Positions 17,452 to 37,164 of a DNA stretch of 48,778 nucleotides are shown one piece after another. Source of the DNA: an uncultured Gammaproteobacteria bacterium (lineage in GTDB: Bacteria > Patescibacteriota > Patescibacteriia > CAIXNZ01); assembly GCA_964531215.1 (NCBI GenBank), contig CAZHFK010000001.1:1-48778 (forward strand), written 5' to 3'. The notes under the pieces were generated by a model, which saw only the letters and a program-made list of their open reading frames with translations, had not been told where the DNA came from and did no database searches. Position numbers and translations under genes: made by a program. The number at the start of each line of letters is the position of its first letter. The first letter of the stretch is position 1.

Positions 17452-17907
17452 TTACTGGAATTTTGTTTTTAAAAGTCTTTGCACTTTTCTTTTATCATCC
17501 CTTTCTTTAATTTGCTGGCGTTTATCAGCTTTTTTCTTGCCTTTAACCAGCGCAATTTCTAATTTTATTTTGTTATGCTTAGTATACAACGAAATCGGTA
17601 CTAATGTCAAGCCAGCTTGCTGTAATTTCCCGCTTAAATAATTAATTTCTTTTTGGTTTAATAAAAGTTTTCTGGATCGGGTCGGGTCATAATCAGGCAG
17701 TGGCCCGGCCATTTTATAAGCCGGAATAGTAGCATTAATTAAAAATACTTCCTGATTTTTATTAATAGTAACATAAGCGCCTTTTAAACTGGCCTGTTTT
17801 TTTCTGACTGATTTTACCTCTTGACCACTTAAAATAATACCGGCTTCAAAAGTTTCCAGTATTTCGTAGTCAAATCTCACTTTTTTATTAATTGCTAAAA
17901 CAGGCAT
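17452..17907 (-). CDS. smpB: SsrA-binding protein
   Basis: NKKVRFDYEI...EAGIILSG.EVKS...DPTRSRKLLL...GLTLVP matches SmpB. It lies adjacent to ssrA. Confidence 0.93.
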   Translation of the reverse strand: MPVLAINKKVRFDYEILETFEAGIILSGQEVKSVRKKQASLKGAYVTINKNQEVFLINATIPAYKMAGPLPDYDPTRSRKLLLNQKEINYLSGKLQQAGLTLVPISLYTKHNKIKLEIALVKGKKKADKRQQIKERDDKRKVQRLLKTKFQ

Positions 17908-22060: not shown

Positions 22061-22133
22061 TTAAAATCAAGTCAAAAAAAGAAATTTTAATATTTCTTTA
22101 TTAATTTTGGCTGTTATAATAAATTATAAATAT

Positions 22134-22979: not shown

Positions 22980-22981
22980 TA

Positions 22982-23010
22982 TTGACAATTTATCCAATTA
23001 ATGTTAGGAT
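22982..23010 (+). promoter_or_regulatory. Island promoter 1
   Basis: TTGACA, 17 nt, TAGGAT, followed by a ~110-nt leader containing hairpin GCTTTGGTTAG/CTAGCCAAAGC. Confidence 0.5.
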
Positions 23011-23124
23011 GAACTATTACAAATATCATAGCTTTGGTTAGCTTTAACTAGCCAAAGCAATTGAGGTTTGTAAAGGAAAGGAATATTTGAAAACAAAATA
23101 GATCAGAAAAAAGGAGGAAAAACA

Positions 23125-23886
23125 ATGAAAAAGCTTATTACCGTATTTGTGATTTTTACTGTGATGATGATTTTTTGTTCCGCTACTGTGGCCGAAGAAA
23201 GTAATGTTGGCCTGGCTCCGGGCAACCTGGGATTTGTGGCCGGTGGTGGCGAAGGCGGCCAGGCGAGTGATGAGGTGAACGACTTTCAGTTCATTTATCT
23301 TGGCGGTTATTACACTGCCATGCTGAATGACAAGGTGGGGATCCGCGGGACTATGATGTACTTCGGCAACTTTGAGGAGCAGGAAGAGTATTACAGCTCT
23401 TCGGCTTCCGGCTTGTCTTCGGCAGTGGAAACTTACAGGCCCATGATCGGTCTCACCTTGCAAGGTGAGCAAAACGGTTGGTGGGTCTGGAACCACATCT
23501 CTGTGGGCGCTGATCATCAGGAAGACCAGGGCTGGCTGCCAGTCACGATTCTGCATGAAGAGCTGATGTTTGGTTCTGGCTGGTTCTACAATTTTTTGTG
23601 CGCCACTGCCAGGGTCGGAGCTGAGGACTATGAGTCCTATTATCTCCGGGATCAGGTGTACTTTAAGGTGAACAACTGGCTGCACATCGGTCCTCAGGTC
23701 CAGCAAGTCTGGTTTTACCAGACAGACGACGAGGGGGATAATAAGCTGGTTTACGAACCGGCGTGGGGCGGACAAATTAAGTTCGCTGAAAATACCTCTG
23801 AACCCAAGTATTCGTTGACAGTCGGTGCGACCAACGGTGACTTTGTTGGCACGACCTATCATGTCGACGTTTGGATCGCACTTTAA
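23125..23886 (+). CDS. Secreted protein with beta-barrel-like alternating pattern
   Basis: SD AAAGGAGG and signal peptide MKKLITVFVIFTVMMIFCSATVA. Many short amphipathic strands are rich in G/Y/W/F. The 293-aa antisense ORF is discounted. Confidence 0.7.
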   Translation: MKKLITVFVIFTVMMIFCSATVAEESNVGLAPGNLGFVAGGGEGGQASDEVNDFQFIYLGGYYTAMLNDKVGIRGTMMYFGNFEEQEEYYSSSASGLSSAVETYRPMIGLTLQGEQNGWWVWNHISVGADHQEDQGWLPVTILHEELMFGSGWFYNFLCATARVGAEDYESYYLRDQVYFKVNNWLHIGPQVQQVWFYQTDDEGDNKLVYEPAWGGQIKFAENTSEPKYSLTVGATNGDFVGTTYHVDVWIAL

Positions 23887-23905
23887 GTTTTTTTCAAAAA
23901 GTTCA

Positions 23906-23939
23906 AGCTGGGAATGTAAAAACATTCTCAGCTTTTTTA
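23906..23939 (+). terminator. Rho-independent terminator
   Basis: Hairpin AGCTGGGAATG-N5-CATTCTCAGCT followed by TTTTTT. Confidence 0.75.
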
Positions 23940-24042
23940 TTAGATAAAACTAAAGTTTTACAATCCATAGGTTAATTTGCCTTTAGATAAAACTGAAGTT
24001 TTATAATCCGTAGGTCAGGATAAAGCCGAAGTTTTATAATCC
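23940..24042 (+). repeat. Array of three 27-bp palindrome-containing units (operator-like array 1)
   Basis: TTAGATAAAACTRAAGTTTTAYAATCC starts at 23940 and 23983, with a degenerate copy at 24016. It ends 9 nt before the -35 box. Confidence 0.85.
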
Positions 24043-24051
24043 GGGTTTAGC

Positions 24052-24080
24052 TTGACAAAAAAATTTTTTTATGATAGAAT
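24052..24080 (+). promoter_or_regulatory. Island promoter 2 with an A/T homopolymer spacer
   Basis: TTGACA, AAAAAATTTTTTTATGA, TAGAAT. The spacer is 17 nt. Confidence 0.6.
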
Positions 24081-24151
24081 GATAGATCAATAAATAGTTT
24101 GAAATATTTGAATTTTGAAAAATCAACCAAACCAATAAGGAGGAAAGAAAA

Positions 24152-25138
24152 ATGACTGAAGAACTGGAAACCAGAGGCCTTGATGTCAGGGGATTTATTT
24201 CTAAGCACGGAAGATTGGTTTTGCTTCTGTTGCTCTTTGTTCTGCTGATAATTTTGCTTTTCAGCAGATGTGACAGCTGCAGCGGCCGACTCAGTGGCAT
24301 CAAAAATCATCTGCCGTTTATCGGTGATGACGAGACTAAACCAGACGTGGCTGACGGCTGCACTTACTGTCGAGACAATGAAGAGTTTCGTCGACAGGTA
24401 GTTTCTTTGGTCACCACTGATCCTGAGATCGCTGCCTGGCTCAAAGAGCTGATCTGCGAGACTGACTGCAGTGCTCCGCCGCTGGCTAAGAAAAAAGCAG
24501 CCCCTAAAAAGAAAAAAACGGCTAAGCCGAAAACCTGCTCGGATCTGGGGTCTGCCTGGTCGTGTGTTAACGTGCGTAAATATAGTTGCGTGGAAACACG
24601 TAAAAATCTTTGCAAGGGACCCATCCGTTTCCGTTGCGGACGCGGGTGCAGTTTGCGTTCCAAGCCTGACCCTGATCCGCCGGATTCTCCGGAGGCAAGT
24701 GAAGCGAGTTGGGAGTATCACACTTTTGAGTGTGAAGGCACGGAGTGTGATGTGTTGTATTCAGATGTGCTGACGAACTCGCGGGCAACCATTGTTGATG
24801 ACAATGGTCGTCCGATTTCCACTACGGGTTCGGGGCCGGAACGCCATTTTACACCGACTCGGCGAGTGCGGGTTCGCGTCCCGGCTGGTACTCGGGTTAA
24901 CTACGCGAATATGCGTTCAACGAGCGGGCAGTGGGCAGTCTCAACTGACGGCGCTCGGGTTGAAGGCTCGAGTGAGGTGTCGGATCCCAATTTTGGGGTC
25001 AAGCACAACAACCGCCCCTTGCGTGCGAATGACTCGCGTAAAATGCGAGGTGACTGGACATTTGAAGTTGATGCTCCAGAACCGACTTCGGTTAATCCGA
25101 AGTCTGATAATGGTGCCGGCACTTTCAATGTCCGGTAA
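24152..25138 (+). CDS. Type II (signal-anchor) membrane protein with a Cys-rich, Lys-rich ectodomain
   Basis: SD AAGGAGG, TM helix LVLLLLLFVLLIILLF at aa 22-37, 14 Cys, and a KKKAAPKKKKTAKPK tract. The C-terminus carries the WAVSTDG motif. Confidence 0.7.
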   Translation: MTEELETRGLDVRGFISKHGRLVLLLLLFVLLIILLFSRCDSCSGRLSGIKNHLPFIGDDETKPDVADGCTYCRDNEEFRRQVVSLVTTDPEIAAWLKELICETDCSAPPLAKKKAAPKKKKTAKPKTCSDLGSAWSCVNVRKYSCVETRKNLCKGPIRFRCGRGCSLRSKPDPDPPDSPEASEASWEYHTFECEGTECDVLYSDVLTNSRATIVDDNGRPISTTGSGPERHFTPTRRVRVRVPAGTRVNYANMRSTSGQWAVSTDGARVEGSSEVSDPNFGVKHNNRPLRANDSRKMRGDWTFEVDAPEPTSVNPKSDNGAGTFNVR

Positions 25139-25157
25139 AAAATATTTTTAAGCTATT

Positions 25158-25189
25158 AAGCTGGAGACAACAAGTCTCCAGCTTTTTTC
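25158..25189 (+). terminator. Rho-independent terminator
   Basis: Hairpin AAGCTGGAGAC-AACA-GTCTCCAGCTT followed by TTTT. Confidence 0.8.
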
Positions 25190-25345
25190 TTAGATAAAAC
25201 TGAAGTTTTACAATCCTAATCAATTTTTTTTCTTAGATAAAACTGAAGTTTTACAATCCGTAGGTTAATTTGCCTTTAGATAAAATTTAAGTTTTATAAT
25301 CCTGATCAATTTTTTTTCTTAGATAAAACTGAAGTTTTATAATCC
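25190..25345 (+). repeat. Array of four 27-bp palindrome-containing units at exact 43-bp phasing (operator-like array 2)
   Basis: Units start at 25190, 25233, 25276 and 25319. The spacers alternate between TAATCAATTTTTTTTC-type and GTAGGTTAATTTGCCT. Confidence 0.9.
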
Positions 25346-25367
25346 TAATCAAATTTTAATAAAAATC

Positions 25368-25396
25368 TTGACAAAAAAAATTTTTTATGCTACACT
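25368..25396 (+). promoter_or_regulatory. Island promoter 3 with an A/T homopolymer spacer
   Basis: TTGACA, AAAAAAATTTTTTATGC, TACACT. The spacer is 17 nt. Confidence 0.6.
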
Positions 25397-25476
25397 GAGA
25401 CATTAGGTTAAAGACAGAGTCAAGGTCAATAAAGGATCTTTAAATACAAAAAATCAAGAAAAAGGAGGGATTCAAA

Positions 25477-26094
25477 ATGAAGAATTTGGTTATGCTTGCT
25501 ATGTGCGTTATGATGATTGTCTCTTTTGGCTGTTCGGCCATTGAAAGAGAGACGCTTTTGTCGTCTTCGGAGGGACAAACCAATGAATTTCAGGCGACTG
25601 ATCCGGCTCAGGTGACTGAGGCACCGGCGCCATTGCCTGGTTCAACCACCCCGCCAGAGAGTGAGCAGTCCGTGGCTCAGGAGACTGCGCCACAGCCCGC
25701 TCCGGCGACAGGGCCTGTCAGTTTGGAAGGCCAGGGTGGTGGGACCATTGAGATTCAGGCGATTCCCGGAACATGGGGCAAGGCTTTTAAAGCTTTTTAC
25801 ATCACCTGGTTTTCGGACGAGGGGCAGCGGTTTCAGTCTTTCCCGCCGCTCCACACGCTGAAATTCAATAACGTGGCTCCTGGAGAGTATTTTGTCAATC
25901 TCCAGTGGACCACAAAACGCTGGGTAGTGGAGACCAGTCCACCGGTTGACGCTGATCATCGCGCCCTAAACGGCCGGGTCCGCATTCGCATGAATGGCGG
26001 CCCCTGGCACGAGTTTACTTCGGCTGATACTTCTAAGGTGGTTAATCCGGCGACCGGAGAAACCTATTGGAATCTTCGGGTAGTCGTTCCTTGA
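25477..26094 (+). CDS. Secreted (lipo)protein with a Pro/Ala/Thr-rich linker and the island beta-module
   Basis: SD AAAGGAGGG, signal peptide with FGCSA (lipobox-like), linker APAPLPGSTTPPESEQ..APQPAPATGP, then the GGGTIEIQAIP...RWVVETSPP...NGRVRIRMNGG module. Confidence 0.8.
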   Translation: MKNLVMLAMCVMMIVSFGCSAIERETLLSSSEGQTNEFQATDPAQVTEAPAPLPGSTTPPESEQSVAQETAPQPAPATGPVSLEGQGGGTIEIQAIPGTWGKAFKAFYITWFSDEGQRFQSFPPLHTLKFNNVAPGEYFVNLQWTTKRWVVETSPPVDADHRALNGRVRIRMNGGPWHEFTSADTSKVVNPATGETYWNLRVVVP

Positions 26095-26117
26095 TTGATT
26101 TCTGTCAAACAAATTTA

Positions 26118-26150
26118 ATCGGAGTCTTACGAGACTCCGATTTTTATTTT
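26118..26150 (+). terminator. Rho-independent terminator
   Basis: Hairpin ATCGGAGTCT-TAC-GAGACTCCGAT followed by TTTTTATTTT. Confidence 0.8.
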
Positions 26151-26219
26151 ACAATAAAACTTAACAAATAAGATAAAGATGTTTAATTAAGTTATTAAAG
26201 TAACAAAGGCGGCAATAGC

Positions 26220-26759
26220 ATGAAAGAATTTATTGGATTGTTTTTTGTTCTTGTTTGGCTGAGTTTGGCTGGTTGTTTTTTTAAAAATAATTTAGGGATT
26301 ACATCTGCGCCGGTTAGCGAACCGCAAATGATTGTCATTTCCGGACCCTTGTTCGGGGATTCAGCCAGTCAGACGGCTTTGGTTGGCAACTGCCCGGTTA
26401 GCCTGCAAGGCAGTGGTGGCGGCACTATTGAAATAGAGCCGATTCCAGATTCCTTGTATGGTGAAACTTTTAATGCGGGTTATCTGACCTGGTATATTAA
26501 TAAAAATGATCGCTTTTAGCGGTTCTGTCAGGCCGGGCGTTTAATTTTTGATAAAATTTTGCTTGGCGAGTATTTATTGAATTTCCGCCGGAATACAGGA
26601 CGCTGGGTAGTTGAAACCGAGCCGCCGGTTGAAGATGATCATCGGCCGTTGAACGGCCGGCTAAGGGTACGTTTTAATGGCGGCGAGTGGCACGAGTTTA
26701 CTTCGGCAGATACTTTTAGAACCGGCCAATACAGGAATTTACGTTTGGTTGTACCCTGA
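26220..26759 (+). pseudogene. Paralog of 25477-26094 interrupted by a single in-frame TAG
   Basis: ORFs 26220-26519 and 26559-26759 are in the same frame. The TAG at 26517-26519 aligns with the Gln in RFQSF of the paralog. The SD is weakened (AAAGGCGG) and the promoter hexamers are degenerate (TTAACA, 17 nt, TAATTA). Confidence 0.65.
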
Positions 26760-26779
26760 ATTTTTTTCAAAAAATATTA

Positions 26780-26808
26780 AATCGAGACTTGGGTCTCGAT
26801 TTTTTTTG
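26780..26808 (+). terminator. Rho-independent terminator
   Basis: Hairpin ATCGAGAC-TTGG-GTCTCGAT followed by TTTTTTTT. Confidence 0.8.
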
Positions 26809-26854
26809 GGATTTATATTAAGATATATAATGATATTATAAAAAAAACATATGC

Positions 26855-26883
26855 TTGACAAAATAGCTACAATCATATATAAT
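26855..26883 (+). promoter_or_regulatory. Island promoter 5
   Basis: TTGACA, 17 nt, TATAAT. It lies inside the N-terminal extension proposed by the ORF track. Confidence 0.6.
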
Positions 26884-26982
26884 TATAGATCCTGGATAAA
26901 AGTCCAGTTATTCATATTTAAACGGATAGGCGGTTTATTGGCCTTGCAATACACAAGAACTTTGAAAAGGAGGAATAATAAT

Positions 26983-28536
26983 ATGAAAAAAATAGTCACT
27001 ATTTTTTTGCTTTTTGTTTTTTGTCTGCTACTTTCGGCTTGTGCTGTTTCTCATGGCCAGGCTGCTTTGTTTCAGACAACAAAGACACTTGATCAACGGT
27101 TAACCAGCTTGGAAGAATCTCCAAGCCGGTTTAGTGATTGGGTAGCTGATCAGATCATTGAGCAGCGCTTGGAAACCATGACCATTGATTATGACTGCTT
27201 TTCCATGCCTGAATGCCGAGCGCAGGTTGTCCGGGTGAAAAAGGCATTGCCTGAGATTAAAATTAGGATTTATGTCAATGCTATGGAACTTTTTGAGCGG
27301 TCTCGGGAGCTTAATCAGCGTCCGGTACAGCAAAAAATCGCTCAAGCAGTCAAAGCTAATCATCCGAATTATTATCTGCGTGACATTAATGGTAATCGCA
27401 TCCAATACTGGCAGCAGTATGAGATGTACATGATGAATCTGTCCAGTCATTGCCCTGAGTATAATGACAAGCCTTGGTCAGAGTTTTTGGTTGATAGTCT
27501 TTACGAACAGGTTTATCAACCCAATGCCCGCTTGATTGACGGCATTGAGCTTGATAATATGTGGCCGTATGTTTCTTGGATCAATGAGTTCAGAAATGTG
27601 CAAATTGATCTGAATAACGATGGCCAGCCCGAAGATTATTGGACCCTGGATTATTATTGGCGCCAGGGTATGTTTCACTTGATTGACTACATTCGTTATA
27701 AATTCCCAGACGGGTTTATTGTCACTGGCCGTGGATTCCATTACCGCTATAATAGTCGGCTTGACGGTCTGACTTTTGAGCATGTTTTTGAACATGGTGA
27801 ATCCGGTATTCAGGGCGGTAATTTTTCCAAAGTTGATCGTTGGGTTCGCTTGTCACAACCAGGTAAATATTACACCTGGAACGCCAGACAAAACCAGCAA
27901 ACCCATAATATCACTCAATATGTAATTTCACTTTTGGGTGATGGTTACTTTGCTTTAGATGGCGGTGATACCGGTCATGGAGAGTTTACAACTTTTCCCG
28001 GTTACGTCAATTTGGGCCAGGCTATGGAGCCGGCTCGTTATCCGTATCAGGTGATTTTTGACTCTGATCAGTCATTGATTGGTTTGCAAGGAGAGTATAC
28101 TCCCCAGGCCAATAATTGGCTGCGTTTGGATAATGGCCAGACAATATCAATCAGCGCTAAAAAAGGCCAGCAAGTTCAGTTTTACTATCAAATTCTGAGT
28201 GGCCAGTACTGTGCTTCAGAAATCAAATTCACTTATCCTGGCATGCCGGAAAAAGATAAAAATCAGTTTGACGCACATCGCTGGCAGGATGGTGAATATT
28301 ATGCTTTGGCAAATGAAGACGGAGCATTTGCCTGGAGTTATACAGGACCTGGCTATGCTTTATTGACTCATATTGTTATCCGGGATACTAATTTGGGCAA
28401 ACCTTATTTCATGCGCCAGTATGAAAAAGGCTATGTCTATTATAATCCCGGTGACCAGCCTATTTATCTGGAATTTCCAGGTCAAGGAATTATTGAATTA
28501 AAGTCTGGGCAAGGCAAAATAATGCTTAGCCAATAG
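26983..28536 (+). CDS. Lipoprotein, possibly a glycoside-hydrolase-like TIM barrel (GHL15-like); function unverified
   Basis: SD AAAGGAGG 8 nt before ATG 26983. Lipobox LLSAC. The DGIELDNMW, DLNNDGQPED and WRQG pattern is reminiscent of GHL-type putative hydrolases. It ends with TAG followed by a terminator. Confidence 0.7.
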   Translation: MKKIVTIFLLFVFCLLLSACAVSHGQAALFQTTKTLDQRLTSLEESPSRFSDWVADQIIEQRLETMTIDYDCFSMPECRAQVVRVKKALPEIKIRIYVNAMELFERSRELNQRPVQQKIAQAVKANHPNYYLRDINGNRIQYWQQYEMYMMNLSSHCPEYNDKPWSEFLVDSLYEQVYQPNARLIDGIELDNMWPYVSWINEFRNVQIDLNNDGQPEDYWTLDYYWRQGMFHLIDYIRYKFPDGFIVTGRGFHYRYNSRLDGLTFEHVFEHGESGIQGGNFSKVDRWVRLSQPGKYYTWNARQNQQTHNITQYVISLLGDGYFALDGGDTGHGEFTTFPGYVNLGQAMEPARYPYQVIFDSDQSLIGLQGEYTPQANNWLRLDNGQTISISAKKGQQVQFYYQILSGQYCASEIKFTYPGMPEKDKNQFDAHRWQDGEYYALANEDGAFAWSYTGPGYALLTHIVIRDTNLGKPYFMRQYEKGYVYYNPGDQPIYLEFPGQGIIELKSGQGKIMLSQ

Positions 28537-28555
28537 ATTTTGTAAATAAAATTTT

Positions 28556-28592
28556 AAGCAGCCGAGTTTTTCTCTGGCTGCTTTTTTTATTT
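28556..28592 (+). terminator. Rho-independent terminator
   Basis: Hairpin AAGCAGCCGAG-N7-CTGGCTGCTT followed by TTTTTT. Confidence 0.75.
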
Positions 28593-28620
28593 TAGCCTGT
28601 ACAGTTAACTATACATAGCC

Positions 28621-28649
28621 TTGACAAAATTTTCAAAAGATGATAAAAT
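28621..28649 (+). promoter_or_regulatory. Island promoter 6
   Basis: TTGACA, 17 nt, TAAAAT. Confidence 0.5.
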
Positions 28650-28721
28650 AAGATATTCTGTAAACAATAGAAAAACTAGCTGGAAATAACCTGGAAATAA
28701 CTCAGAAAAGGAGGGATCGTT

Positions 28722-29228
28722 ATGATAAAGGTCTTTAAAATTAGTTTTTTATTTTTGATTCTGTTGTGTTTTATGGTCGCTTGCGGGCCGGCTAAAAAGC
28801 CGTCTAATAATGGCACAGGTAATGGCACAGGCACTTTCGATACAGGCGGTCAGCCTAATCCGGCACCTATGCCAGTTACACCGCCTACACCTGCGCCTGC
28901 ACCTGCGTCCGCACCTAATCATACTCCAAAGGATGGTTTGGTGACTATAACGGTCAGTGCCCAACGTGATTTGTCGTATGCCGTGACTGATATCGGCTAT
29001 GGCAAACATTACGCCAGTGGCGGGACAATCACATTTCAGATCACTACCGGTTATCACGCGATTAACGCCACTGACTCTGACTGGAATTTCGCGGTTTCTG
29101 ATAATCGCGCCAATTACCCGTTGTATGTCAATGGGGTCAAATTGTCGCGGGTCAGGTCAGACCCGAAAGGAGGAATGTATTATTTTTTCGTCTATTCGGA
29201 CGGAAGCATTTCTCCGACACCGCCATAA
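28722..29228 (+). CDS. Lipoprotein with a Pro/Ala-rich linker and one island beta-module
   Basis: SD AAAGGAGGG, lipobox FMVAC, linker PNPAPMPVTPPTPAPAPASAP, then the module with WNFAVSD..YPLYVNGV..GGMYYFFVYSDGSI. Confidence 0.8.
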   Translation: MIKVFKISFLFLILLCFMVACGPAKKPSNNGTGNGTGTFDTGGQPNPAPMPVTPPTPAPAPASAPNHTPKDGLVTITVSAQRDLSYAVTDIGYGKHYASGGTITFQITTGYHAINATDSDWNFAVSDNRANYPLYVNGVKLSRVRSDPKGGMYYFFVYSDGSISPTPP

Positions 29229-29245
29229 AATGGCTTTAAAAATTT

Positions 29246-29282
29246 AACCAGGAATAAGTCAAATTGTTCCTGGTTTTTTTAT
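29246..29282 (+). terminator. Rho-independent terminator
   Basis: Hairpin AACCAGGAA-N12-TTCCTGGTT followed by TTTTTT. Confidence 0.75.
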
Positions 29283-29305
29283 TGTTTGATTTTTGTTAAT
29301 AACTA

Positions 29306-29334
29306 TTGACAAAATCATAAAAATAGTATATAAT
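29306..29334 (+). promoter_or_regulatory. Island promoter 7
   Basis: TTGACA, 17 nt, TATAAT. Confidence 0.6.
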
Positions 29335-29396
29335 AAAATATTGTATTTTTTGACAAAAACCATCGGAAATAAACCTAAAAAAAGGAGGAAAGAAAA

Positions 29397-30953
29397 ATGA
29401 AAAAGATGGTAAAAATATTGACAACAGTTTTTTGCTGTTTGTTAATCGTCATTTTGAGCAGTGCTTGTGAGGGGACTGCCGAATCTGGTACCGGCTCTGC
29501 TGATAACAGTGATTCCACCACTTTGACTTTTCAGGTGGAAGGTTATCAGAACCAGCCGGATTTGTACTGCGCTGCCAAGGGAATAGAATGGGAGCCTATC
29601 CCGTTTTCTCAGAACGGCACAGCCAGGCTGGAGGTTAGTTATCTGCCTCAGGACGTATTTTGCAACATTGAAGACGGTCCTGATCAGTGGATAGTTAACT
29701 CCGACGGTGTTTGTCAGGGCTATCACTTTTATGTGAATGACATGGAAGTGACTACCTGGCAGAAAAATGACTATGGCGGCCGCAATTACAGTTTCCATGT
29801 CAAGGATGACGGTCAGGTTGAATTGATCGGTAACAATATCGTGTTTACTGATTGTTCGGCCGGTAGTGAGCCTGGGTGTCAGGTAACTGATTTGCAGGTC
29901 GGTTTTTCAGGCTATCAATCAGGTCAGACTGCGACGCTTTATTGCGCCGGTGATGGGCTTGGCTGGGAGTCTGTTACATTGGATAGCAATGGTCAGGCTG
30001 ACTTGTCAGTTTGTCCGGCGGTTTTCCAGTGTAATGTCAAAGTTGACAACAGCTGGGCTGTTCGTTCGGACGGGGTTTGTCAAGCTTATACTTTTGAGGT
30101 AAATGGCACAACCATTACTTCAGGAGTTCCCAGCTTGTCCGGCGGTCAAAACTATGCTTTTGAACTGCTGGACAGTGGCACAGTCCAACTCTACGGAGAC
30201 AGCCTTGAAGCAATTGACTGCTCTGGTAGCGCTGACGACACGACTTGCGTTGAACCCCTTAGTGTTGAGTTCAGCGGTTACAGTCAAGGCGACAGCGTTA
30301 CGCTTTACTGCGCCGGCAACGGACTTGGCTGGGGTGAGACCAGTCTGTCTGACAATGGCCAAGCAACTTTGACTGGCTGCCCCGGAGTATTCGAATGCAA
30401 CTTGGAAGTTTCTCCGGGTAACTGGGCAGTTCGTTCAGACGGGGTTTGCCAAGCTTACACTTTTGTGGTCAATGGCACAACCATTAATACTGGTATTGCC
30501 GCTTTGTCCGGCGGTCAAAACTATGCTTTTGAACTGCTGGCCGGCGGCACAGTCCAACTCTGGGGCAGTGCCTTGGAGCAAATCGATTGTTCAGGCAATA
30601 CTGGCAATCCTGATATTTTATGCGACCTGGAATTGGTTTACCAGGGTACGTATCAGGATCCGGTTCTGAAAATAACCGGCGGCCGTCTTAGCTGGGATGA
30701 TGATTATCATTTTGGCTTAGACGGTGACACCATGTCGGTTTTGTTGCCTGATATTCATCCGGATACTTATTACGCCAACATGGATATGCTTGGCAATGGC
30801 AGTATCTGGTATGTCAACCATCAGGGCATTTTGGCAGGCAATTCATTGTCGGGCAATGATGTCTGGCTGGATTACTGGGAATCCAATGACATGGGCGGCG
30901 GTAACTTGGTCTTTACCTTGACCGACACCTGTGAAGTGGATTTTCCGGAATAA
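29397..30953 (+). CDS. Lipoprotein built from three Cys-rich tandem modules plus one diverged module
   Basis: SD AAAGGAGG and lipobox LSSAC. The ~122-aa module (..LYCAG.GLGW......NGQA.L..CP.VF.CN....WAVRSDGVCQAYTF.VNGTTI......LSGGQNYAFELL..GTVQL.G......DCSG) occurs three times. Confidence 0.85.
   Translation: MKKMVKILTTVFCCLLIVILSSACEGTAESGTGSADNSDSTTLTFQVEGYQNQPDLYCAAKGIEWEPIPFSQNGTARLEVSYLPQDVFCNIEDGPDQWIVNSDGVCQGYHFYVNDMEVTTWQKNDYGGRNYSFHVKDDGQVELIGNNIVFTDCSAGSEPGCQVTDLQVGFSGYQSGQTATLYCAGDGLGWESVTLDSNGQADLSVCPAVFQCNVKVDNSWAVRSDGVCQAYTFEVNGTTITSGVPSLSGGQNYAFELLDSGTVQLYGDSLEAIDCSGSADDTTCVEPLSVEFSGYSQGDSVTLYCAGNGLGWGETSLSDNGQATLTGCPGVFECNLEVSPGNWAVRSDGVCQAYTFVVNGTTINTGIAALSGGQNYAFELLAGGTVQLWGSALEQIDCSGNTGNPDILCDLELVYQGTYQDPVLKITGGRLSWDDDYHFGLDGDTMSVLLPDIHPDTYYANMDMLGNGSIWYVNHQGILAGNSLSGNDVWLDYWESNDMGGGNLVFTLTDTCEVDFPE
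29520..30640 (+). repeat. Intragenic tandem repeat, period ~366-375 bp (3 copies)
   Basis: The motif CTTTAYTGCGCC occurs at 29937 and 30303. GTTCGTTCRGACGGGGTTTG occurs at 30060 and 30429. Copies 2 and 3 stay highly similar at the DNA level. Confidence 0.85.
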
Positions 30954-30973
30954 TTTTGTCAAAAATAACTTTT

Positions 30974-31004
30974 AAACAGGGAGTTTCGTGCTCCCTGTTT
31001 TTTA
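30974..31004 (+). terminator. Rho-independent terminator
   Basis: Hairpin AAACAGGGAG-N7-CTCCCTGTTT followed by TTT. Confidence 0.8.
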
Positions 31005-31005
31005 C

Positions 31006-31034
31006 TTGACAAAAAAAATACTATATGCTAATTT
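31006..31034 (+). promoter_or_regulatory. Island promoter 8 (A8 run after the -35 box)
   Basis: TTGACA, 17 nt, TAATTT. Confidence 0.5.
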
Positions 31035-31146
31035 GAAATAATTATATAAAATAAAAATATAAGGAAAATTGGTGTTTTTTTAGCACCTTGAAATAAATGG
31101 AAATTTAAGGTATTGAAATTTTCACAGGAAAAAAAGGAGGATCATA

Positions 31147-32421
31147 ATGATACAGAAAAAAGTTTTTTTACTGCTTTTGACCTTTTGCCTTGCCCTGACT
31201 TTTTCTTGCGGCAATGCCGAAGAACACGACGATGACGACGGTTCTGCCGGCGGGGGTGGCAATCTGCCACCGACCAATTTTCGTTTGATTTTTCAGTCAA
31301 ACAATCTTGGTGTCGGTGATATCCTGCACTGCGATGCTCCGGACCTGAACTGGGAGCCGGGCATTGAGTTTAACCAGAATCATCGGGCAGTCATCAATAC
31401 TGCTTCGATCGGCACTTATCTTTGCAATGTACAGTTGCAAAATAATGAATGGGTGGTCTATTCGTCCACCGACCATTTGTTTGGCGCCACAGTAACCAGC
31501 CAGCAAGGCGCTACCGTGCTGAGCACTTACCGTCTAACCGAAGAGGATATCGTCTCTAACGGTATTGGCGGCGGCAACTGGGAATTATGGCTGGCCGATA
31601 GCGGTATAGTGAGTGATTCCGGTGGCGGCGATACTGTTGATCCGGTTGATCCGCCGCCTGTCGAATGCGTTGATCCGGTTGTCAGTACTGAGCTGGAAGT
31701 GGTCATCAAAAGCTATGTCAATTTTGATTTTACGCCACGAGTTCGGTTTTCGGGTGACGGATTTACATCGCGGACAATGACTCGGTCGGCTCCCAACATG
31801 TACACTTACACATACACCGGGGTAGCCACGGACGACTTGTATACGATCAATTTTGAGGATCCGACAACCGGAGAATACCTCTATGACGAGAGCGGACCAA
31901 TGGGGCCGTATGTGGTGATTGTCAATGGTATTCAGGTCAGTGAAATGCTGGATGACGATATTAAGGTGATACTTGACCCTTGCGCCAATGTTATCACCTC
32001 AGTCGTTGACTTGACTTTCACTTTCCTGCCGTCTGACACTACTGCCTATGACGTTGACGTCATTTTTGGCCTGAATTCTTTTTTGGCTTATGGCATGAGC
32101 GCTGACGGCAGCCAGTGGACAACTACCATTTATGACGTGCCCCCCGGCCGTTACGAGTTCAATATCCGCTATCTGACCTCAACCGATCCTGATGTGGCTG
32201 CCTGGCCAGACCATGTCAACGGCGATGTAGCGGTCAATGGCACAGCCATGACCATCTATGATATGATCATTTACTCGGAAACCGTTCCCTGGAACGAACC
32301 GACCGGCACCCCGCTTTTGATGGTCAGAGCTGATTTCCTGATCGATGTTTACCCGGACGGCACTGTTGTCGGCGTGAACATGCGAGACGGAACAATCGGG
32401 ATTATTATCCCATTACCATAA
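31147..32421 (+). CDS. Lipoprotein with an acidic N-terminus and island-type beta-modules
   Basis: SD AAAGGAGG and lipobox LTFSC. The first module is LHCDAPDLNWEP...YLCNVQLQNNEWVVYSS...GGGNWELWLADSGIV. Later segments carry VIVNG and VAVNG strands. Confidence 0.8.
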   Translation: MIQKKVFLLLLTFCLALTFSCGNAEEHDDDDGSAGGGGNLPPTNFRLIFQSNNLGVGDILHCDAPDLNWEPGIEFNQNHRAVINTASIGTYLCNVQLQNNEWVVYSSTDHLFGATVTSQQGATVLSTYRLTEEDIVSNGIGGGNWELWLADSGIVSDSGGGDTVDPVDPPPVECVDPVVSTELEVVIKSYVNFDFTPRVRFSGDGFTSRTMTRSAPNMYTYTYTGVATDDLYTINFEDPTTGEYLYDESGPMGPYVVIVNGIQVSEMLDDDIKVILDPCANVITSVVDLTFTFLPSDTTAYDVDVIFGLNSFLAYGMSADGSQWTTTIYDVPPGRYEFNIRYLTSTDPDVAAWPDHVNGDVAVNGTAMTIYDMIIYSETVPWNEPTGTPLLMVRADFLIDVYPDGTVVGVNMRDGTIGIIIPLP

Positions 32422-32435
32422 TTTCAATACCTTTT

Positions 32436-32476
32436 AAGCCCCCCATCTTTAATAAAGGTGCGGGGGCTTTTTTATT
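32436..32476 (+). terminator. Rho-independent terminator at the right edge of the island
   Basis: Hairpin AGCCCCC...GGGGGCT followed by TTTTT. Confidence 0.65.
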
Positions 32477-32504
32477 TGACAAAATTTAAAAAATATGTTA
32501 AAAT
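32476..32504 (+). promoter_or_regulatory. Sigma-70-type promoter for the ligase-like gene
   Basis: TTGACA, 17 nt, TAAAAT. Confidence 0.5.
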
Positions 32505-33947: not shown

Positions 33948-33951
33948 ATTT

Positions 33952-35771: not shown

Positions 35772-35773
35772 TT

Positions 35774-36994: not shown

Positions 36995-37164
36995 TTGACT
37001 TTTATTGGGCAGATTGCTAATTTTAAAGTATAAGTGTTTAGTTTTTTAAGCTCTAAAAAAAGGGGGATTAGCTCCTATTTTTATTGGCAAAAAAACTTGA
37101 CAAAAATACTTTAATATGCTATTCTATAATATCGCTTTAAAAAAGCTAAATTTATAGAAAAATT

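What the first reader, a model, noticed from the sequence alone, without database searches (positions are those of the whole stretch)
22981..32476. GC-rich 9.5-kb island of eight monocistronic secreted/lipoprotein genes splitting a surface-glycan locus
Eight same-strand genes lie between a Wzz-like gene (ends 22979) and an O-antigen-ligase-like gene (starts 32571). Their coding sequence is compositionally foreign. My hand counts of single 60-nt lines give 48% (line 30001) and 62% (line 24841) G+C inside island CDSs. Backbone CDS lines give 22% (line 9301) and 27% (line 20101). The island also has many NCG codons, which look uncommon in the backbone by eye. The intergenic DNA, however, is backbone-like and AT-rich. 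Every gene is a self-contained unit with five parts. These are a TTGACA-17-TAnnnT promoter, a 70-110 nt leader, a perfect AAGGAGG SD, an N-terminal signal peptide, lipobox (LSAC, MVAC, SSAC, FSC) or signal anchor, and its own GC-stem/T-run terminator. I saw no integrase, transposase, phage or plasmid gene and no flanking direct repeat. I recognise none of the products with confidence, apart from a tentative GHL15-like fold for 26983-28536. The locus has many individually switched surface lipoproteins from one paralogous module family, and one copy is decaying. That resembles mycoplasma variable-surface-protein loci more than a metabolic or defence island. For a putative epibiotic CPR cell it would be a candidate host-attachment or interaction locus.
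Basis: partly seen in the sequence, partly recalled or inferred. Interest (0 to 1): 0.85.

Follow-up and report, generated by a model that had tools for sequence, protein, structure and literature searches.

The report
Conserved GC-rich envelope-protein gene cluster
Eight separately transcribed genes for exported proteins in a tiny AT-rich (CPR, Buchananbacteria-like) bacterium are GC-rich only within their reading frames, and because relatives have kept both the genes and this oddity, it is an old native cell-surface cluster rather than imported DNA.

Summary
Between a Wzz-like gene and a Wzy_C gene lie eight same-strand genes with GC3 0.40-0.61, against 0.15-0.32 in the backbone. Seven have a TTGACA-17-TAnnnT promoter, an AAGGAGG ribosome-binding site and a terminator; the eighth (g4) has degraded signals and a nonsense codon.

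The "foreign island" reading is not supported.
- The same genes sit in the same order in at least five independent assemblies of relatives; both flanks are seen only in the closest full locus. Backbone proteins there are as little as 45-58% identical.
- The GC3 offset is the same in all six lineages (0.9-1.4 logit units).
- It starts at the first codons and is still present in the last 20. Spacers and untranslated regions have backbone composition (0.258 vs 0.261).
- Third-position changes are nearly balanced (GC>AT 461, AT>GC 395), and dN/dS is 0.08-0.25.

Predicted products:
- g1: a 12-stranded barrel resembling outer-membrane proteins, at modest model confidence.
- g2: a membrane-anchored Cys/Lys-rich protein.
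- g5: a GHL15 glycosidase-like lipoprotein.
- g3, g4, g6, g7, g8: lipoproteins sharing a ~120-residue beta-sandwich module with weak CBM48 likeness.

No phase-variation switch was found. My best reading is a native, fast-evolving surface glycan-binding and glycan-processing cluster. The cause of its reading-frame-limited GC enrichment is unresolved.

The parts
22107..22979 (+). Wzz-like chain-length-determinant gene; left flank with backbone composition
   Evidence: Pfam Wzz 2.2e-05 (25.1 bits, just under the 25.5 cut-off) and GNVR 0.0013. GC3 0.234. No Shine-Dalgarno sequence.
22982..23010 (+). g1 promoter TTGACA-17-TAGGAT with TG
23017..23124 (+). g1 5' untranslated region, with a stable stem-loop at its predicted 5' end and an AAGGAGG ribosome-binding site
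   Evidence: Folding energy -25.4 kcal/mol, z = -5.9 against shuffles. Ribosome-binding site at 23111-23117.
23125..23886 (+). g1: secreted protein (signal-peptidase-I type signal) predicted as a 12-stranded beta-barrel
   Evidence: AlphaFold2 model with pLDDT 63 and pTM 0.63, 12 strands of 10-16 residues. All top Foldseek PDB hits are outer-membrane barrels: OmpC/F, OMPLA and the invasin beta-domain, with TM 0.40-0.48 for OMPLA and invasin and 0.32-0.36 for the OmpC/F porins. The mature protein is 16% aromatic and 12.7% Gly. No Pfam or NCBIfam hit. GC3 0.606.
23905..23934 (+). g1 terminator
23943..24042 (+). Three copies of the 24-nt motif GATAAAACTGAAGTTTTAYAATCC (palindrome TAAAACTnnAGTTTTA), just upstream of the g2 -35 box
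   Evidence: 7 copies in the window, 0 expected by chance. The orthologous position in L010 has 2 copies.
24052..24080 (+). g2 promoter TTGACA-17-TAGAAT with TG
   Evidence: The 17-nt spacing is conserved in L010, L011 and L003.
24152..25138 (+). g2: N-terminally membrane-anchored Cys/Lys-rich protein with a C-terminal copy of the shared module
   Evidence: Translation. The anchor and following Cys are conserved. hhalign g2C-g6C probability 88%. GC3 0.514.
25158..25184 (+). g2 terminator
25193..25345 (+). Four copies of the same 24-nt motif, spaced 43 nt, upstream of the g3 -35 box
   Evidence: L010 has 2 copies here. Absent in L011 and L003.
25368..25396 (+). g3 promoter TTGACA-17-TACACT with TG
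25477..26094 (+). g3: lipoprotein with a Pro/Ala-rich linker and a C-terminal module
   Evidence: Lipobox Cys at residue 19. Paralogue of g4 (BLASTP 3e-12; hhalign 100%). g3C-g8A probability 87%.
26117..26142 (+). g3 terminator
26220..26759 (+). g4: pseudogene copy of the g3 paralogue, with a TAG at 26517-26519 where the intact orthologues have CAG
   Evidence: Alignments A4 and A5 show -35 TTAACA against TTGACA, ribosome-binding site AAGGCGG against AAGGAGG, and the nonsense codon. g4 is intact in L010 and L011. L001 has ATA in place of the ATG. g4 is absent in L003.
26779..26802 (+). g4 terminator
26855..26883 (+). g5 promoter TTGACA-17-TATAAT (12 of 12 consensus positions)
26983..28536 (+). 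g5: lipoprotein with a GHL15 (hypothetical TIM-barrel glycoside hydrolase) domain at residues 86-353 and a ~160-residue C-terminal domain
   Evidence: Pfam PF14885 6.9e-14, 52.9 bits against a cut-off of 27. Lipobox LSAC. The slowest-evolving island gene. Invariant acidic residues include D69, D71, E189, D191, D261 and E266.
28556..28589 (+). g5 terminator (hairpin plus T-run)
   Evidence: Read by eye; the imperfect stem was missed by the scan.
28621..28649 (+). g6 promoter TTGACA-17-TAAAAT with TG
28722..29228 (+). g6: lipoprotein with a Pro-rich linker and one module
   Evidence: Lipobox MVAC. hhalign g6C-g7A probability 92%.
29246..29275 (+). g6 terminator
29306..29334 (+). g7 promoter TTGACA-17-TATAAT (12 of 12 consensus positions)
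29397..30953 (+). g7: lipoprotein made of four tandem ~120-residue Cys-containing beta-sandwich modules (A 29514-29882, B 29883-30248, C 30249-30614, D 30615-30950)
   Evidence: hhalign probability 100% for B-C, 99.8% for A-B and A-C, and 73-95% for the three pairs with D. Module B model has pLDDT 89.7. The best but non-significant PDB matches are CBM48 domains, TM up to 0.50. A 664-residue homologue (P0017) carries an extra copy.
30974..31000 (+). g7 terminator
31006..31034 (+). g8 promoter TTGACA-17-TAATTT with TG
   Evidence: Read by eye; below the scan's -10 threshold.
31147..32421 (+). g8: lipoprotein with an N-terminal module (31264-31656) homologous to the g7 modules, and a C-terminal region with a CBM48-like sequence motif (about 31990-32190)
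   Evidence: hhalign g8A-g7 modules 94-97%. The family profile hits the N-terminal carbohydrate-binding-like stretch of pullulanase 5ot1 (E 4.7e-05, domain 0.002) and BH0236 5t7a (0.01). Only 13 representatives among 1.84 billion proteins.
32438..32474 (+). g8 terminator
   Evidence: Read by eye; the loop is too long for the scan.
32476..32504 (+). Promoter of the Wzy-GT4-methyltransferase-GT4 operon; same promoter type as the island genes
32571..33947 (+). Wzy_C (O-antigen ligase/polymerase family) gene; right flank with backbone composition
   Evidence: Pfam PF04932 8.6e-14. GC3 0.318.

Best explanation
This is a vertically inherited, lineage-specific cell-envelope gene cluster of a Candidatus Buchananbacteria-like (CPR/Parcubacteria) clade. 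It is a standing part of the Wzz / Wzy / glycosyltransferase surface-glycan locus, not an inserted foreign island.

Shown:
- There are eight independent transcription units, each with a near-consensus sigma-70 type promoter, a 56-108 nt leader, a consensus ribosome-binding site and an intrinsic terminator. One of the eight (g4) is now dead.
- All products are exported. g1 has a cleavable signal peptide, g2 is membrane-anchored, and g3-g8 are lipoproteins.
- g5 carries a GHL15 glycosidase-like domain.
- g2, g3, g4, g6, g7 (four copies) and g8 share one ~120-residue beta-sandwich module.
- The cluster evolves faster than its flanks but under purifying selection, with paralogue loss and one allele replacement.
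- The GC enrichment is confined to the translated frames, is conserved in six lineages, and is close to substitutional equilibrium.

Inferred:
- The lipoproteins form a lipid-anchored layer that binds glycan through CBM48-like modules and trims it through GHL15.
- The glycan may be the one made by the neighbouring Wzy/glycosyltransferase genes or one belonging to a partner cell.
- g1 acts as a barrel-shaped pore or anchor.
- The strong promoters and ribosome-binding sites mean high, constitutive expression.
- The GC-rich codon choice is held in place by a weak force that acts on the reading frame itself, worth about one logit unit (roughly 4Nes of 1). It may be tied to translation of these abundant exported proteins. 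Its nature is not established.
For: Synteny and vertical descent.
- The same gene order occurs in NCBI MAG WJKP01000005 (Ca. Buchananbacteria, g5 90% identical), three JGI metagenomes, one ENA assembly and Logan assemblies.
- Identity of island proteins falls in the same order as the backbone, but faster. In L003 the backbone is 45-58% identical and g1/g2/g3 are 31/22/28%.

Maintained composition.
- Island GC3 is 0.46-0.64 and backbone GC3 0.23-0.36. The logit difference is 0.90-1.38 in all six lineages.
- Spacers have 0.258 GC against 0.261 in the backbone. The 5' untranslated regions have 0.287 and the 3' regions 0.30.
- GC3 is already 0.39-0.57 in codons 1-10, against 0.19 in the backbone.
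- Polarised third-position changes are GC>AT 461 and AT>GC 395. Relaxation to backbone composition would need about 2:1 or more.
- dS is 0.4-0.9 among the closest relatives and 1.9-2.8 against L011, where computable, so synonymous sites are turning over.
- L007, a lineage with g5 only 46% identical, shows the same sawtooth of GC-rich genes and AT-rich spacers.

Function.
- dN/dS is 0.08-0.25.
- Pfam GHL15 in g5.
- Module homology and a confident module model.
- CBM48 is the best match both by structure and, independently, by sequence profile for g8.
- g1 model and its outer-membrane-barrel matches.
- Conserved lipobox Cys and Lgt in the window.
- Precedent: the GHL10 enzyme Cwp19 is encoded inside the cell-wall polymer locus of C. 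difficile (PMC5765458).

Not a chimera or mobile element.
- Independent assemblies agree.
- No plasmid or phage DNA match and no PHROG or PADLOC family.
Against: - No biochemical or expression data exist. The glycan-binding role rests on weak similarities: Foldseek E 0.03-0.3 with TM at most 0.50, and an HMM domain E-value of 0.002.
- The g1 model has only moderate confidence (pLDDT 63). CPR bacteria are generally regarded as lacking an outer membrane (stated for a Saccharibacteria relative in bioRxiv 10.64898/2026.03.03.709456), so a classical outer-membrane role is doubtful.
- The codon shift is a general GC shift. Two-fold purine-ending codons move to G, and four-fold codons show no U bias. 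That is not the pattern reported for highly expressed genes (C bias in 2-3-fold pyrimidine-ending codons plus U bias in 4-fold codons; PMC7374057).
- L20 and IF3 have backbone GC3, so ordinary translational selection is not a clean fit.
- The spacers are short and packed with signals, so a regional force such as biased gene conversion, masked in the spacers by selection, is not strictly excluded.
- No relative without the cluster was found, so when and how it arose is unknown.
Confidence: 0.62

Rival explanations
1. Ancient horizontal acquisition: the eight genes came from a GC-richer donor before the recovered lineages split, and they are still ameliorating slowly.
For: Codon usage differs from the backbone in nearly every family. 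GC1 and GC2 are also raised. The products have no paralogues in the backbone of the window. There is a slight excess of GC>AT over AT>GC changes at third positions (461 vs 395).
Against: - Spacers and untranslated regions inside the block have exactly backbone composition.
- The offset is the same size in six lineages whose synonymous sites are saturated (dS above 1.9).
- The substitution ratio of 1.17 implies an equilibrium GC3 near 0.46, not the backbone 0.26-0.34.
- No homologues occur outside this small clade: 8, 5, 4 and 13 hits in searches of billions of proteins.
- There are no mobility genes, tRNA target or direct repeats.
Confidence: 0.1
2. Phase- or antigen-variable surface lipoprotein locus in the manner of Mycoplasma vsp/vlp/vsa: each gene is switched on and off independently to vary the surface.
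For: - Lipoproteins with own promoters.
- A shared module and module-number variation (4 in g7, 5 in P0017).
- Faster divergence than the flanks.
- Allele replacement of g8 in L010: dS 1.3-1.7 against about 0.45 for neighbours, and 53% identity against about 90%.
- Loss of g4.
- Copy-number variation of the 24-nt motif arrays upstream of g2 and g3: 3 and 4 copies here, 2 and 2 in L010.
Against: - No long homopolymer or repeat tract whose length changes promoter spacing. The spacer stays at 17 nt while its A/T runs vary.
- No invertible element, recombinase or silent cassettes.
- Mostly one-to-one orthologues in fixed order across deep divergence.
- dN/dS is at most 0.25.
- Signal-peptide regions are not conserved between paralogues.
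Confidence: 0.12
3. The composition is produced by GC-biased gene conversion at a recombination hot spot (a surface locus exchanged between strains), not by selection on the reading frames. Spacers stay AT-rich only because promoters, leaders and terminators must be.
For: There is evidence of recombination (the g8 allele replacement; near-identical 77-nt repeat units shared between two spacers). All codon classes shift toward G or C rather than toward particular favoured codons. GC1 and GC2 are raised too.
Against: - The offset starts within the first ten codons and ends at the stop.
- About 1.8 kb of spacer, including the repeat arrays with no obvious constraint, shows no rise at all.
- g1 has no paralogue and yet the highest GC3.
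- The flanking Wzz and Wzy genes, which would serve as recombination arms, are unaffected.
Confidence: 0.12
4. Assembly chimera: a GC-rich fragment of another organism joined into a CPR contig.
For: There are sharp compositional steps at 22.98 and 32.5 kb.
Against: The same junctions and gene order occur in independent assemblies from different samples and pipelines. Spacers inside the block are backbone-like and carry the same promoter type as the Wzy operon.
Confidence: 0.01

Closest known systems
Surface glycan-binding lipoproteins and lipoprotein glycosidases of Bacteroidota polysaccharide utilisation loci (SusE/SusF-type proteins, SusG, SusC barrel)
   Same: A set of lipid-anchored proteins built from tandem carbohydrate-binding-like beta-sandwich modules, a lipoprotein glycosidase-like enzyme and a barrel protein, all encoded together. 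SGBP-B of B. ovatus appears among the weak structural matches.
   Different: No SusC/TonB-dependent transporter, no SusD and no hybrid regulator. The barrel is a small 12-stranded one. The organism is presumably single-membraned. The modules are a new sequence family. The genes are monocistronic. Binding and hydrolysis are untested.
GHL-family glycosidases inside cell-wall polymer loci, e.g. Cwp19 (GHL10) in the anionic-polymer locus of C. difficile (PMC5765458)
   Same: A hypothetical TIM-barrel glycosidase of Naumoff's GHL set is encoded within a locus that builds a surface glycopolymer and is displayed at the cell surface.
   Different: The family differs (GHL15, not GHL10). Anchoring is by lipid rather than by CWB2 domains. 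No structure or activity is known for GHL15.
Mycoplasma variable surface lipoprotein loci (vlp, vsp, vsa)
   Same: An AT-rich, reduced genome with a cluster of lipoprotein genes that have own promoters, share repeated modules and evolve fast.
   Different: No switch element (poly-A promoter tract or invertase). Orthologues are stable and one-to-one. Paralogy lies at the level of a fold module, not of near-identical gene copies.
O-antigen / capsule gene clusters with atypical base composition (e.g. enterobacterial rfb between galF and gnd); stated from my own knowledge, not checked here
   Same: A surface-glycan locus whose composition departs from the genome and stays that way across strains, flanked by conserved genes, with allele replacement by recombination.
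   Different: Those clusters are lower in GC than the genome, the deviation covers the whole block, and the atypical genes are the sugar-synthesis and transferase genes. Here the transferases are typical and only the exported-protein reading frames deviate, toward higher GC.
GC-rich adhesin operons of Mycoplasma pneumoniae / genitalium (P1, MgPa and their repeats); recalled from memory, a literature check did not retrieve the figure
   Same: Surface-protein genes are markedly GC-richer than an AT-rich reduced genome.
   Different: Those genes recombine with dispersed repeat copies. No such archive was seen here.

Membership tests
Horizontally acquired genomic island | Base composition and codon usage atypical for the genome | tested here: met
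   GC3 0.40-0.61 against 0.15-0.32. Codon tables differ.
Horizontally acquired genomic island | The atypical composition covers the whole block, non-coding parts included | tested here: not met
   Spacers 0.258 against backbone 0.261. Untranslated regions 0.29-0.30.
Horizontally acquired genomic island | Patchy presence among close relatives, or an empty site | tested here: not met
   Present in the same order in every related contig recovered, down to 46-50% g5 identity. Both flanks are seen only in L010.
Horizontally acquired genomic island | Mobility genes, a tRNA target or flanking direct repeats | tested here: not met
   None found.
Horizontally acquired genomic island | Composition decaying toward that of the host (amelioration) | tested here: not met
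   GC>AT 461 against AT>GC 395 at third positions. The offset is equal in six lineages.
Phase-variable surface lipoprotein locus (Mycoplasma vlp/vsp type) | Several lipoprotein genes, each with its own promoter | tested here: met
Phase-variable surface lipoprotein locus (Mycoplasma vlp/vsp type) | A switch: a variable homopolymer or repeat tract in the promoter or 5' coding region, or a site-specific inversion system | tested here: not met
   Promoter spacing is fixed at 17 nt in orthologues. No recombinase found. The only variable repeats lie upstream of the -35 box.
Phase-variable surface lipoprotein locus (Mycoplasma vlp/vsp type) | Highly similar paralogues with conserved leader and signal regions | tested here: not met
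   Only g3/g4 are close (41% identity). The others are related at profile level only. Signal peptides differ.
Phase-variable surface lipoprotein locus (Mycoplasma vlp/vsp type) | On/off expression of individual genes within a population | not testable with these tools
   Needs reads, transcriptomes or proteomes.
GHL15 (Pfam PF14885, hypothetical glycoside hydrolase) | Match to the family model above its curated cut-off | tested here: met
   52.9 bits against 27, covering model positions 1-258 of 271. The precomputed hit is also present on 7 of 8 homologues.
GHL15 (Pfam PF14885, hypothetical glycoside hydrolase) | TIM-barrel fold with conserved acidic catalytic residues | tested here: inconclusive
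   Invariant D/E residues exist, but no structure was predicted and no solved relative was found.
GHL15 (Pfam PF14885, hypothetical glycoside hydrolase) | Glycosidase activity | not testable with these tools
   As of a 2017 paper the GHL families other than GHL1 were uncharacterised (PMC5765458); I found no characterised GHL15 member.
Outer-membrane beta-barrel proteins | Signal peptide followed by an even number of long antiparallel strands closing a barrel | tested here: inconclusive
   12 strands were predicted, but pLDDT is 63. Foldseek probability is 1.0 to OMPLA, porins and the invasin beta-domain, with TM only 0.32-0.48.
Outer-membrane beta-barrel proteins | C-terminal aromatic residue (insertion signal) | tested here: inconclusive
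   The protein ends in ...VWIAL here and in P0009. It ends in ...RF in P0010, P0011 and L003. P0012 and P0013 have an extended tail.
Outer-membrane beta-barrel proteins | The organism has an outer membrane and a barrel-assembly machinery | not testable with these tools
   Only a 48.8-kb window is available. CPR bacteria are usually described as lacking an outer membrane.
CBM48 / glycogen-binding beta-sandwich modules | Significant sequence or structural match | tested here: inconclusive
   Foldseek best hits are CBM48, but at E 0.03-0.3 and TM at most 0.50. The g8 profile matches the pullulanase N-terminal stretch with domain E 0.002. No Pfam hit.
CBM48 / glycogen-binding beta-sandwich modules | Carbohydrate binding | not testable with these tools
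   Needs binding assays.
Wzx/Wzy-dependent surface polysaccharide locus (context) | Wzy-type polymerase/ligase, chain-length regulator and glycosyltransferases together | tested here: met
   Wzy_C 8.6e-14; Wzz 2.2e-05, borderline; three GT4 genes and a methyltransferase. No flippase was recognised in the window.
TIGR (tandem interspaced guide RNA) arrays, considered for the 43-nt repeats | Two alternating 8-12 nt repeats with 9-nt variable spacers, a 36-nt unit, and an adjacent Nop-domain Tas gene | tested here: not met
   The unit is 43 nt with a 24-nt repeat. The inter-repeat stretches are themselves repeated. No Nop-domain protein was found among the scanned ORFs. Definition taken from PMC12045711.

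The most novel reading that the evidence does not exclude
These CPR cells hold a small set of envelope genes at a separate, reading-frame-limited codon equilibrium (about one logit unit richer in G/C) because they are translated under a special regime. The set encodes a previously unseen surface apparatus. It would consist of a porin-like 12-stranded barrel in a supposedly single-membraned bacterium, or one inserted into the partner cell's membrane. Around it would sit lipid-anchored CBM48-like glycan binders and a GHL15 glycosidase that capture glycans from the partner or the environment. If so, the composition signature alone could be used to find the interaction genes of uncultured CPR lineages.
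Probability: 0.15. Interest if true: 0.85.

Novelty: new variant of a known kind. Interest (0 to 1): 0.58.

Why it matters
There are three reasons.

1. It is a clean counter-example to the habit of reading atypical composition as imported DNA. Here the anomaly is old, native, limited to the translated frames and actively maintained. That makes it a natural system for asking what force other than mutation bias sets GC3 in a bacterium.

2. The products are lineage-restricted exported proteins of an uncultured, probably partner-dependent bacterium. They include a predicted membrane-type barrel, a new carbohydrate-binding-like module family and an uncharacterised glycosidase family. All sit inside the surface-glycan locus, which makes them concrete candidates for the cell-surface chemistry of CPR bacteria.

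3. The very regular promoter, leader, ribosome-binding-site and terminator units give a ready parts list of strong expression signals for this group.

Tried and rejected
- Exact look-ups of window proteins (g8, the Wzy-like gene, and the 100% identical g7 hit P0014) found nothing on record, so the source record of the window could not be named.
- The GTDB genome scan with the g5 profile found one species only. The metagenome scan found four loci. Both caps are now spent, so no relative lacking the cluster could be sought.
- Profiles of g5, g1 and the shared module gave no significant match to PDB sequences.
- NCBIfam, PHROGs and PADLOC gave only noise.
- Plasmid and phage DNA searches gave no match.
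- The 18-nt core of the repeat motif has only single, scattered exact matches in viral contigs. I judged these to be chance.
- TIGR arrays were considered for the 43-nt repeats and rejected.
- Stable 5' leader structure as a general feature was rejected. Only the g1 leader folds better than shuffles.
- Rfam finds no family in the island.
- Using the g4 pseudogene as a test of relaxed composition failed, because it is too young.
- Apparent disruptions of g6 in L010 and g7 in L002 turned out to be a gene-calling error and an assembly gap.
- Ordinary translational selection as the full explanation was weighed and found to fit only partly.
- A literature check for GC-rich Mycoplasma adhesin operons did not retrieve a usable statement.

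Full report
**1. The observation**

The compositional step is real. In 1-kb windows GC is 39-50% from about 22.5 to 32.5 kb and 24-36% on either side.

Eight same-strand reading frames fill the block:
- g1 23125-23886
- g2 24152-25138
- g3 25477-26094
- g4 26220-26519
- g5 26983-28536
- g6 28722-29228
- g7 29397-30953
- g8 31147-32421

Their GC3 is 0.40-0.61, while 28 backbone genes have 0.15-0.32. Codon choice differs in nearly every family. TTA is 0.06 of Leu codons against 0.49 in the backbone, GAC is 0.48 against 0.13, GAG 0.46 against 0.17, and CTG 0.29 against 0.06.

Two other surface-protein genes of the window (36-1112 and 42544-46128) have G+C-rich second positions but backbone-like third positions. 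Being a surface protein is therefore not enough to explain the shift.

The spacers inside the block have 0.258 GC. Backbone spacers have 0.261.

**2. Expression signals**

- A scan finds TTGACA-17-TAnnnT promoters before g1, g2, g3, g5, g6 and g7. It also finds them before the Wzz-like gene and the Wzy operon. The g8 promoter (TTGACA-17-TAATTT) is visible in the sequence.
- AAGGAGG lies 6-9 nt before seven of the eight start codons. These are 7 of the 12 copies in the whole window. The flanking Wzz and Wzy genes have no such site.
- Each gene ends with a hairpin and a T-run (two by eye).
- The backbone genes downstream (Wzy, GT4, methyltransferase, GT4) overlap or abut as an operon.
- Only the g1 leader has a significantly stable 5' stem-loop (z = -5.9). 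The other leaders are unstructured.

g4 is the exception. Its -35 box is TTAACA where three relatives have TTGACA. Its ribosome-binding site is AAGGCGG. A CAG codon has become TAG, and the frame continues to 26759. In L001 the g4 start codon is ATA. In L003 the gene is absent.

**3. Surroundings**

- Left flank: AI-2E transporter, DUF5656, an HtrA-like protease, and a Wzz-like gene.
- Right flank: Wzy_C, three GT4 glycosyltransferases, a methyltransferase, a radical SAM/SPASM gene, an ECF sigma factor with a DUF5667 protein, and a 1194-residue surface protein.
- The window also encodes Lgt, the first enzyme of lipoprotein maturation.
- No integrase, transposase, phage or defence family was found. 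The only tRNA is at 11.1 kb.

**4. Relatives**

g5 has only eight homologues in the word-indexed search of 5.8 billion clusters. The best (90% identical) comes from a Candidatus Buchananbacteria MAG. That MAG is also the only hit among 185,579 GTDB species genomes.

Contigs carrying homologues show the same order.
- L010 has the whole set from Wzz to Wzy.
- L011 has Wzz, g1 to g6 and the start of g7.
- L001 has g3 to g8 and the Wzy operon.
- L002 has g5 to g8 and the Wzy operon.
- L003/L004 have the left backbone, Wzz, g1, g2, g3, g5 and g6.

L007 and L008 (g5 46% identical) keep g3-g5-g6-g7.

These assemblies come from NCBI, JGI, ENA and Logan, so a chimera is excluded.

Protein identities fall in the same lineage order as the backbone, but faster.

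| Locus | Backbone proteins | Island proteins |
|---|---|---|
| L003 | 45-58% | g1 31%, g2 22%, g3 28%, g5 49% |
| L002 | 59-71% | g6 40%, g7 34%, g8 37%, g5 61% |

In L010, g8 is 53% identical while its neighbours are 83-93%. Its dS is 1.3-1.7 against about 0.45 for the neighbours. That is an allele replaced by recombination.

dN/dS is 0.08-0.25 in the island and 0.06-0.18 in the backbone. The genes are therefore functional and somewhat less constrained.

**5. The composition is maintained, not a relic**

- The offset is present in all six lineages. Island GC3 is 0.46-0.64 against 0.23-0.36 in the backbone. The logit difference is nearly constant at 0.90-1.38, even though L003 has a richer backbone.
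- It is limited to the translated frames. Spacers match the backbone. Predicted 5' untranslated regions have 0.287 GC and 3' regions 0.30. GC3 is already 0.39-0.57 in codons 1-10, against 0.19 in the backbone, and it is still high in the last 20 codons.
- Synonymous sites are not frozen. dS is 0.4-0.9 among the three closest genomes and 1.9-2.8 against L011, where computable.
- Changes were polarised by three-taxon parsimony. GC>AT and AT>GC at third positions are nearly balanced: 461 against 395 overall, and 306 against 255 by my tally of the W, L001 and L010 rows of that call with the replaced g8 allele left out. At GC3 near 0.5, relaxation toward the backbone equilibrium would need about 2:1 or more. 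This figure comes from my arithmetic on the backbone counts, which give a per-site ratio of about 2.

Parsimony is biased in skewed sequences, so the exact numbers are rough. The contrast itself is large.

A foreign block that is still ameliorating would carry its spacers along and would show a clear GC>AT excess. Neither is seen. I conclude that a GC-favouring force of about one logit unit acts on these reading frames in every lineage.

**6. What that force is remains open**

The strong C shift in two- and three-fold pyrimidine-ending codons matches what is reported for highly expressed genes in all prokaryotes (PMC7374057). The promoters and ribosome-binding sites also suggest high expression.

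Several points do not fit that explanation.
- Purine-ending two-fold codons shift to G.
- Four-fold codons show no U bias.
- L20 and IF3 are unshifted.
- The 1194-residue surface protein shows the classical pattern instead: U bias in four-fold codons and some C bias.

Biased gene conversion at a recombining surface locus would explain a general GC shift. It does not explain the sharp frame limits, the unaffected 1.8 kb of spacers, or the unaffected flanks.

A deliberate use of locally rare codons to slow translation of exported, Cys-containing beta-rich proteins is a further possibility that I cannot test.

One small gene elsewhere (7224-7484) has the same promoter, leader and ribosome-binding-site build. 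It also has raised GC3 (0.44 over 86 codons). This is a hint that the effect goes with this type of expression unit.

**7. The products**

*g1.* It has a signal-peptidase-I type signal in all orthologues. AlphaFold2 on a six-sequence alignment gives 12 strands of 10-16 residues (pLDDT 63, pTM 0.63). All 43 Foldseek PDB matches with E up to 0.001 are outer-membrane barrels. They include OMPLA, OmpF/OmpC and the invasin beta-domain, with TM 0.32-0.48 among the main hits. The mature protein is 16% aromatic and 13% glycine, and three orthologues end in ...RF. This is a moderate-confidence prediction of a membrane-type barrel. CPR bacteria are usually described as lacking an outer membrane, so its location is an open question.

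*g2.* It has a cytoplasmic N-terminus, one membrane span with a conserved Cys after it, a Cys/Lys-rich stretch and a C-terminal module.

*g5.* It is a lipoprotein with a GHL15 domain. The GHL families are hypothetical TIM-barrel glycosidases. One of them, GHL10, includes Cwp19, which is encoded in the cell-wall polymer locus of C. difficile (PMC5765458). g5 is the most conserved island gene.

*g3, g4, g6, g7 and g8.* They are lipoproteins with a conserved Cys at residues 19-24. Profile-profile comparison links a module of about 110-120 residues across these proteins:

| Pair | hhalign probability |
|---|---|
| g7 modules A, B, C with each other | 99.8-100% |
| g7 module D with A, B, C | 73-95% |
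| g8 N-terminal module with g7 modules | 94-97% |
| g6 module with g7 module A | 92% |
| g2 C-terminal module with g6 module | 88% |
| g3 module with g8 module | 87% |
| g3 module with g4 module | 100% |

A model of g7 module B built on 18 module sequences is confident (pLDDT 89.7) and is a beta-sandwich. It has no significant PDB or viral match. The best hits are CBM48 glycogen-binding domains, with TM up to 0.50. Independently, a sequence profile of the g8 family matches the N-terminal carbohydrate-binding-like stretch of a GH13 pullulanase (E 4.7e-05, domain 0.002). It also matches the BH0236 protein (PDB 5t7a), which I recall, unverified, as a CBM56 module (E 0.01). Both matches run through a ...W...PGRYE... 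motif.

The g8 family has 13 representatives among 1.84 billion proteins. None has a Pfam domain, and those inspected start with lipoprotein signals.

**8. Mechanism proposed**

Shown:
- export signals;
- lipoprotein anchors;
- a glycosidase-like domain;
- a shared beta-sandwich module;
- placement between the chain-length regulator and the polymerase/ligase of a surface-glycan pathway;
- strong independent expression signals;
- fast but constrained evolution.

Inferred:
- The lipoproteins make a lipid-anchored layer that binds a glycan through the modules and cuts or remodels it through g5.
- g1 is a barrel-shaped pore or anchor.
- The target glycan may be the cell's own polymer or one from a partner cell.
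- The design works like a polysaccharide-harvesting surface set (binding lipoproteins, a lipoprotein glycosidase and a barrel), but it fails the membership tests for a Sus-like locus.

**9. The switching idea**

I found no element that could switch the genes. The promoter spacers contain A and T runs of 6-9 nt. The total spacing, however, is 17 nt in every orthologue examined.

There is one unreported feature. A 24-nt motif, GATAAAACTGAAGTTTTAYAATCC, contains a 7-2-7 palindrome. It is repeated three times before the g2 promoter and four times, at 43-nt spacing, before the g3 promoter. No other copy exists in the window.

L010 has two copies at each of the same two places. L011 and L003 have none. 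The arrays share near-identical 77-nt units, so they have been copied between the two spacers.

They look like phased operator sites for a dimeric DNA-binding protein, or like a young minisatellite. Their copy number varies between close relatives. Whether this tunes g2 and g3 is untested. They do not fit TIGR arrays.

**10. Verdict**

The cluster is a new, lineage-restricted variant of a familiar theme: a surface lipoprotein and glycan-handling gene set in a glycan locus. It carries an unusual and well-documented extra, a conserved, frame-limited, near-equilibrium GC3 offset.

Interest is moderate to high: 0.58.

Noticed in passing
window 23943-24042 and 25193-25345; L010 2050-2120 and 3240-3310: There are arrays of a 24-nt palindromic motif (GATAAAACTGAAGTTTTAYAATCC) spaced 43 nt, lying between the upstream terminator and the -35 box of g2 and g3 only. 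The window has 3 and 4 copies and the close relative L010 has 2 and 2. More distant relatives have none. 77-nt units are 94% identical between the two spacers.
   Followed up: partly
window 46205-47704: Four copies of a ~300-nt repeat (72-96% identical) lie downstream of the 1194-residue surface-protein gene. They contain GC-rich stretches and have no Rfam match at gathering thresholds. It is unknown whether they are RNA genes, a mobile element or decayed gene copies.
   Followed up: partly
window 12889-13041, 14700-14849, 47104-47349: Three small ORFs encode similar peptides (M(L/E)..DKDIEKL...FATKEE...LQNSVD.YAKKADT). Each follows a TTGACAA promoter, and two have similar upstream sequence (GGCTAAACC.CGCACAAACGCAAAAT). 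This looks like a dispersed small-gene family or repeat element.
   Followed up: no
window 42544-46128, with 40000-40578 and 40615-42066: A 1194-residue Thr/Ala/Gly/Ser-rich secreted protein has no family match. It has backbone GC3 but a marked T preference in four-fold codons, the pattern usually linked to high expression. It may be the major surface (S-layer-like) protein. It follows an ECF sigma factor and a DUF5667 protein.
   Followed up: no
window 7224-7484: An 86-residue membrane-protein ORF has the same build as the island genes (TTGACT-17-TATAAT with TG, a structured leader, AAGGAGG) and raised GC3 (0.44). This is a possible second example of the composition effect outside the island.
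   Followed up: partly
L010 9110-10375 (g8 orthologue): g8 in this otherwise ~90% identical relative is only 53% identical, with dS 1.3-1.7 against ~0.45 for its neighbours. This indicates replacement by a divergent allele through recombination.
   Followed up: yes
window 32571-38325 compared with L001 and L010: On the window's own branch, backbone third positions show many more AT>GC than GC>AT changes (for example 31 vs 6 in the last GT4 gene and 25 vs 6 in the first). This genome's backbone seems to be drifting GC-ward relative to its two closest relatives, unless this is a parsimony artefact.
   Followed up: no
window 22107 and 32571 start regions: The Wzz-like and Wzy genes have no recognisable Shine-Dalgarno sequence, and Wzz starts with TTG. 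This contrasts with the perfect sites of the island genes, so consensus ribosome-binding sites appear to be reserved for a subset of genes.
   Followed up: no
window 38401-38685 (- strand); L010 16516-16800: A conserved 94-residue helix-turn-helix protein (HTH_17 in the L010 copy) lies between the last glycosyltransferase and the radical SAM gene. It is the only DNA-binding candidate near the locus other than the ECF sigma factor, and it has no demonstrated link to the 24-nt motif.
   Followed up: no
window 17044-17393 (-), 17452-17907 (-), 4021-4380: A tmRNA gene lies next to smpB (tag peptide AKNLFAKVKSAFTPNFAFAAV). There is also a free-standing 23S rRNA intervening-sequence protein gene. 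Both are ordinary for CPR genomes.
   Followed up: no
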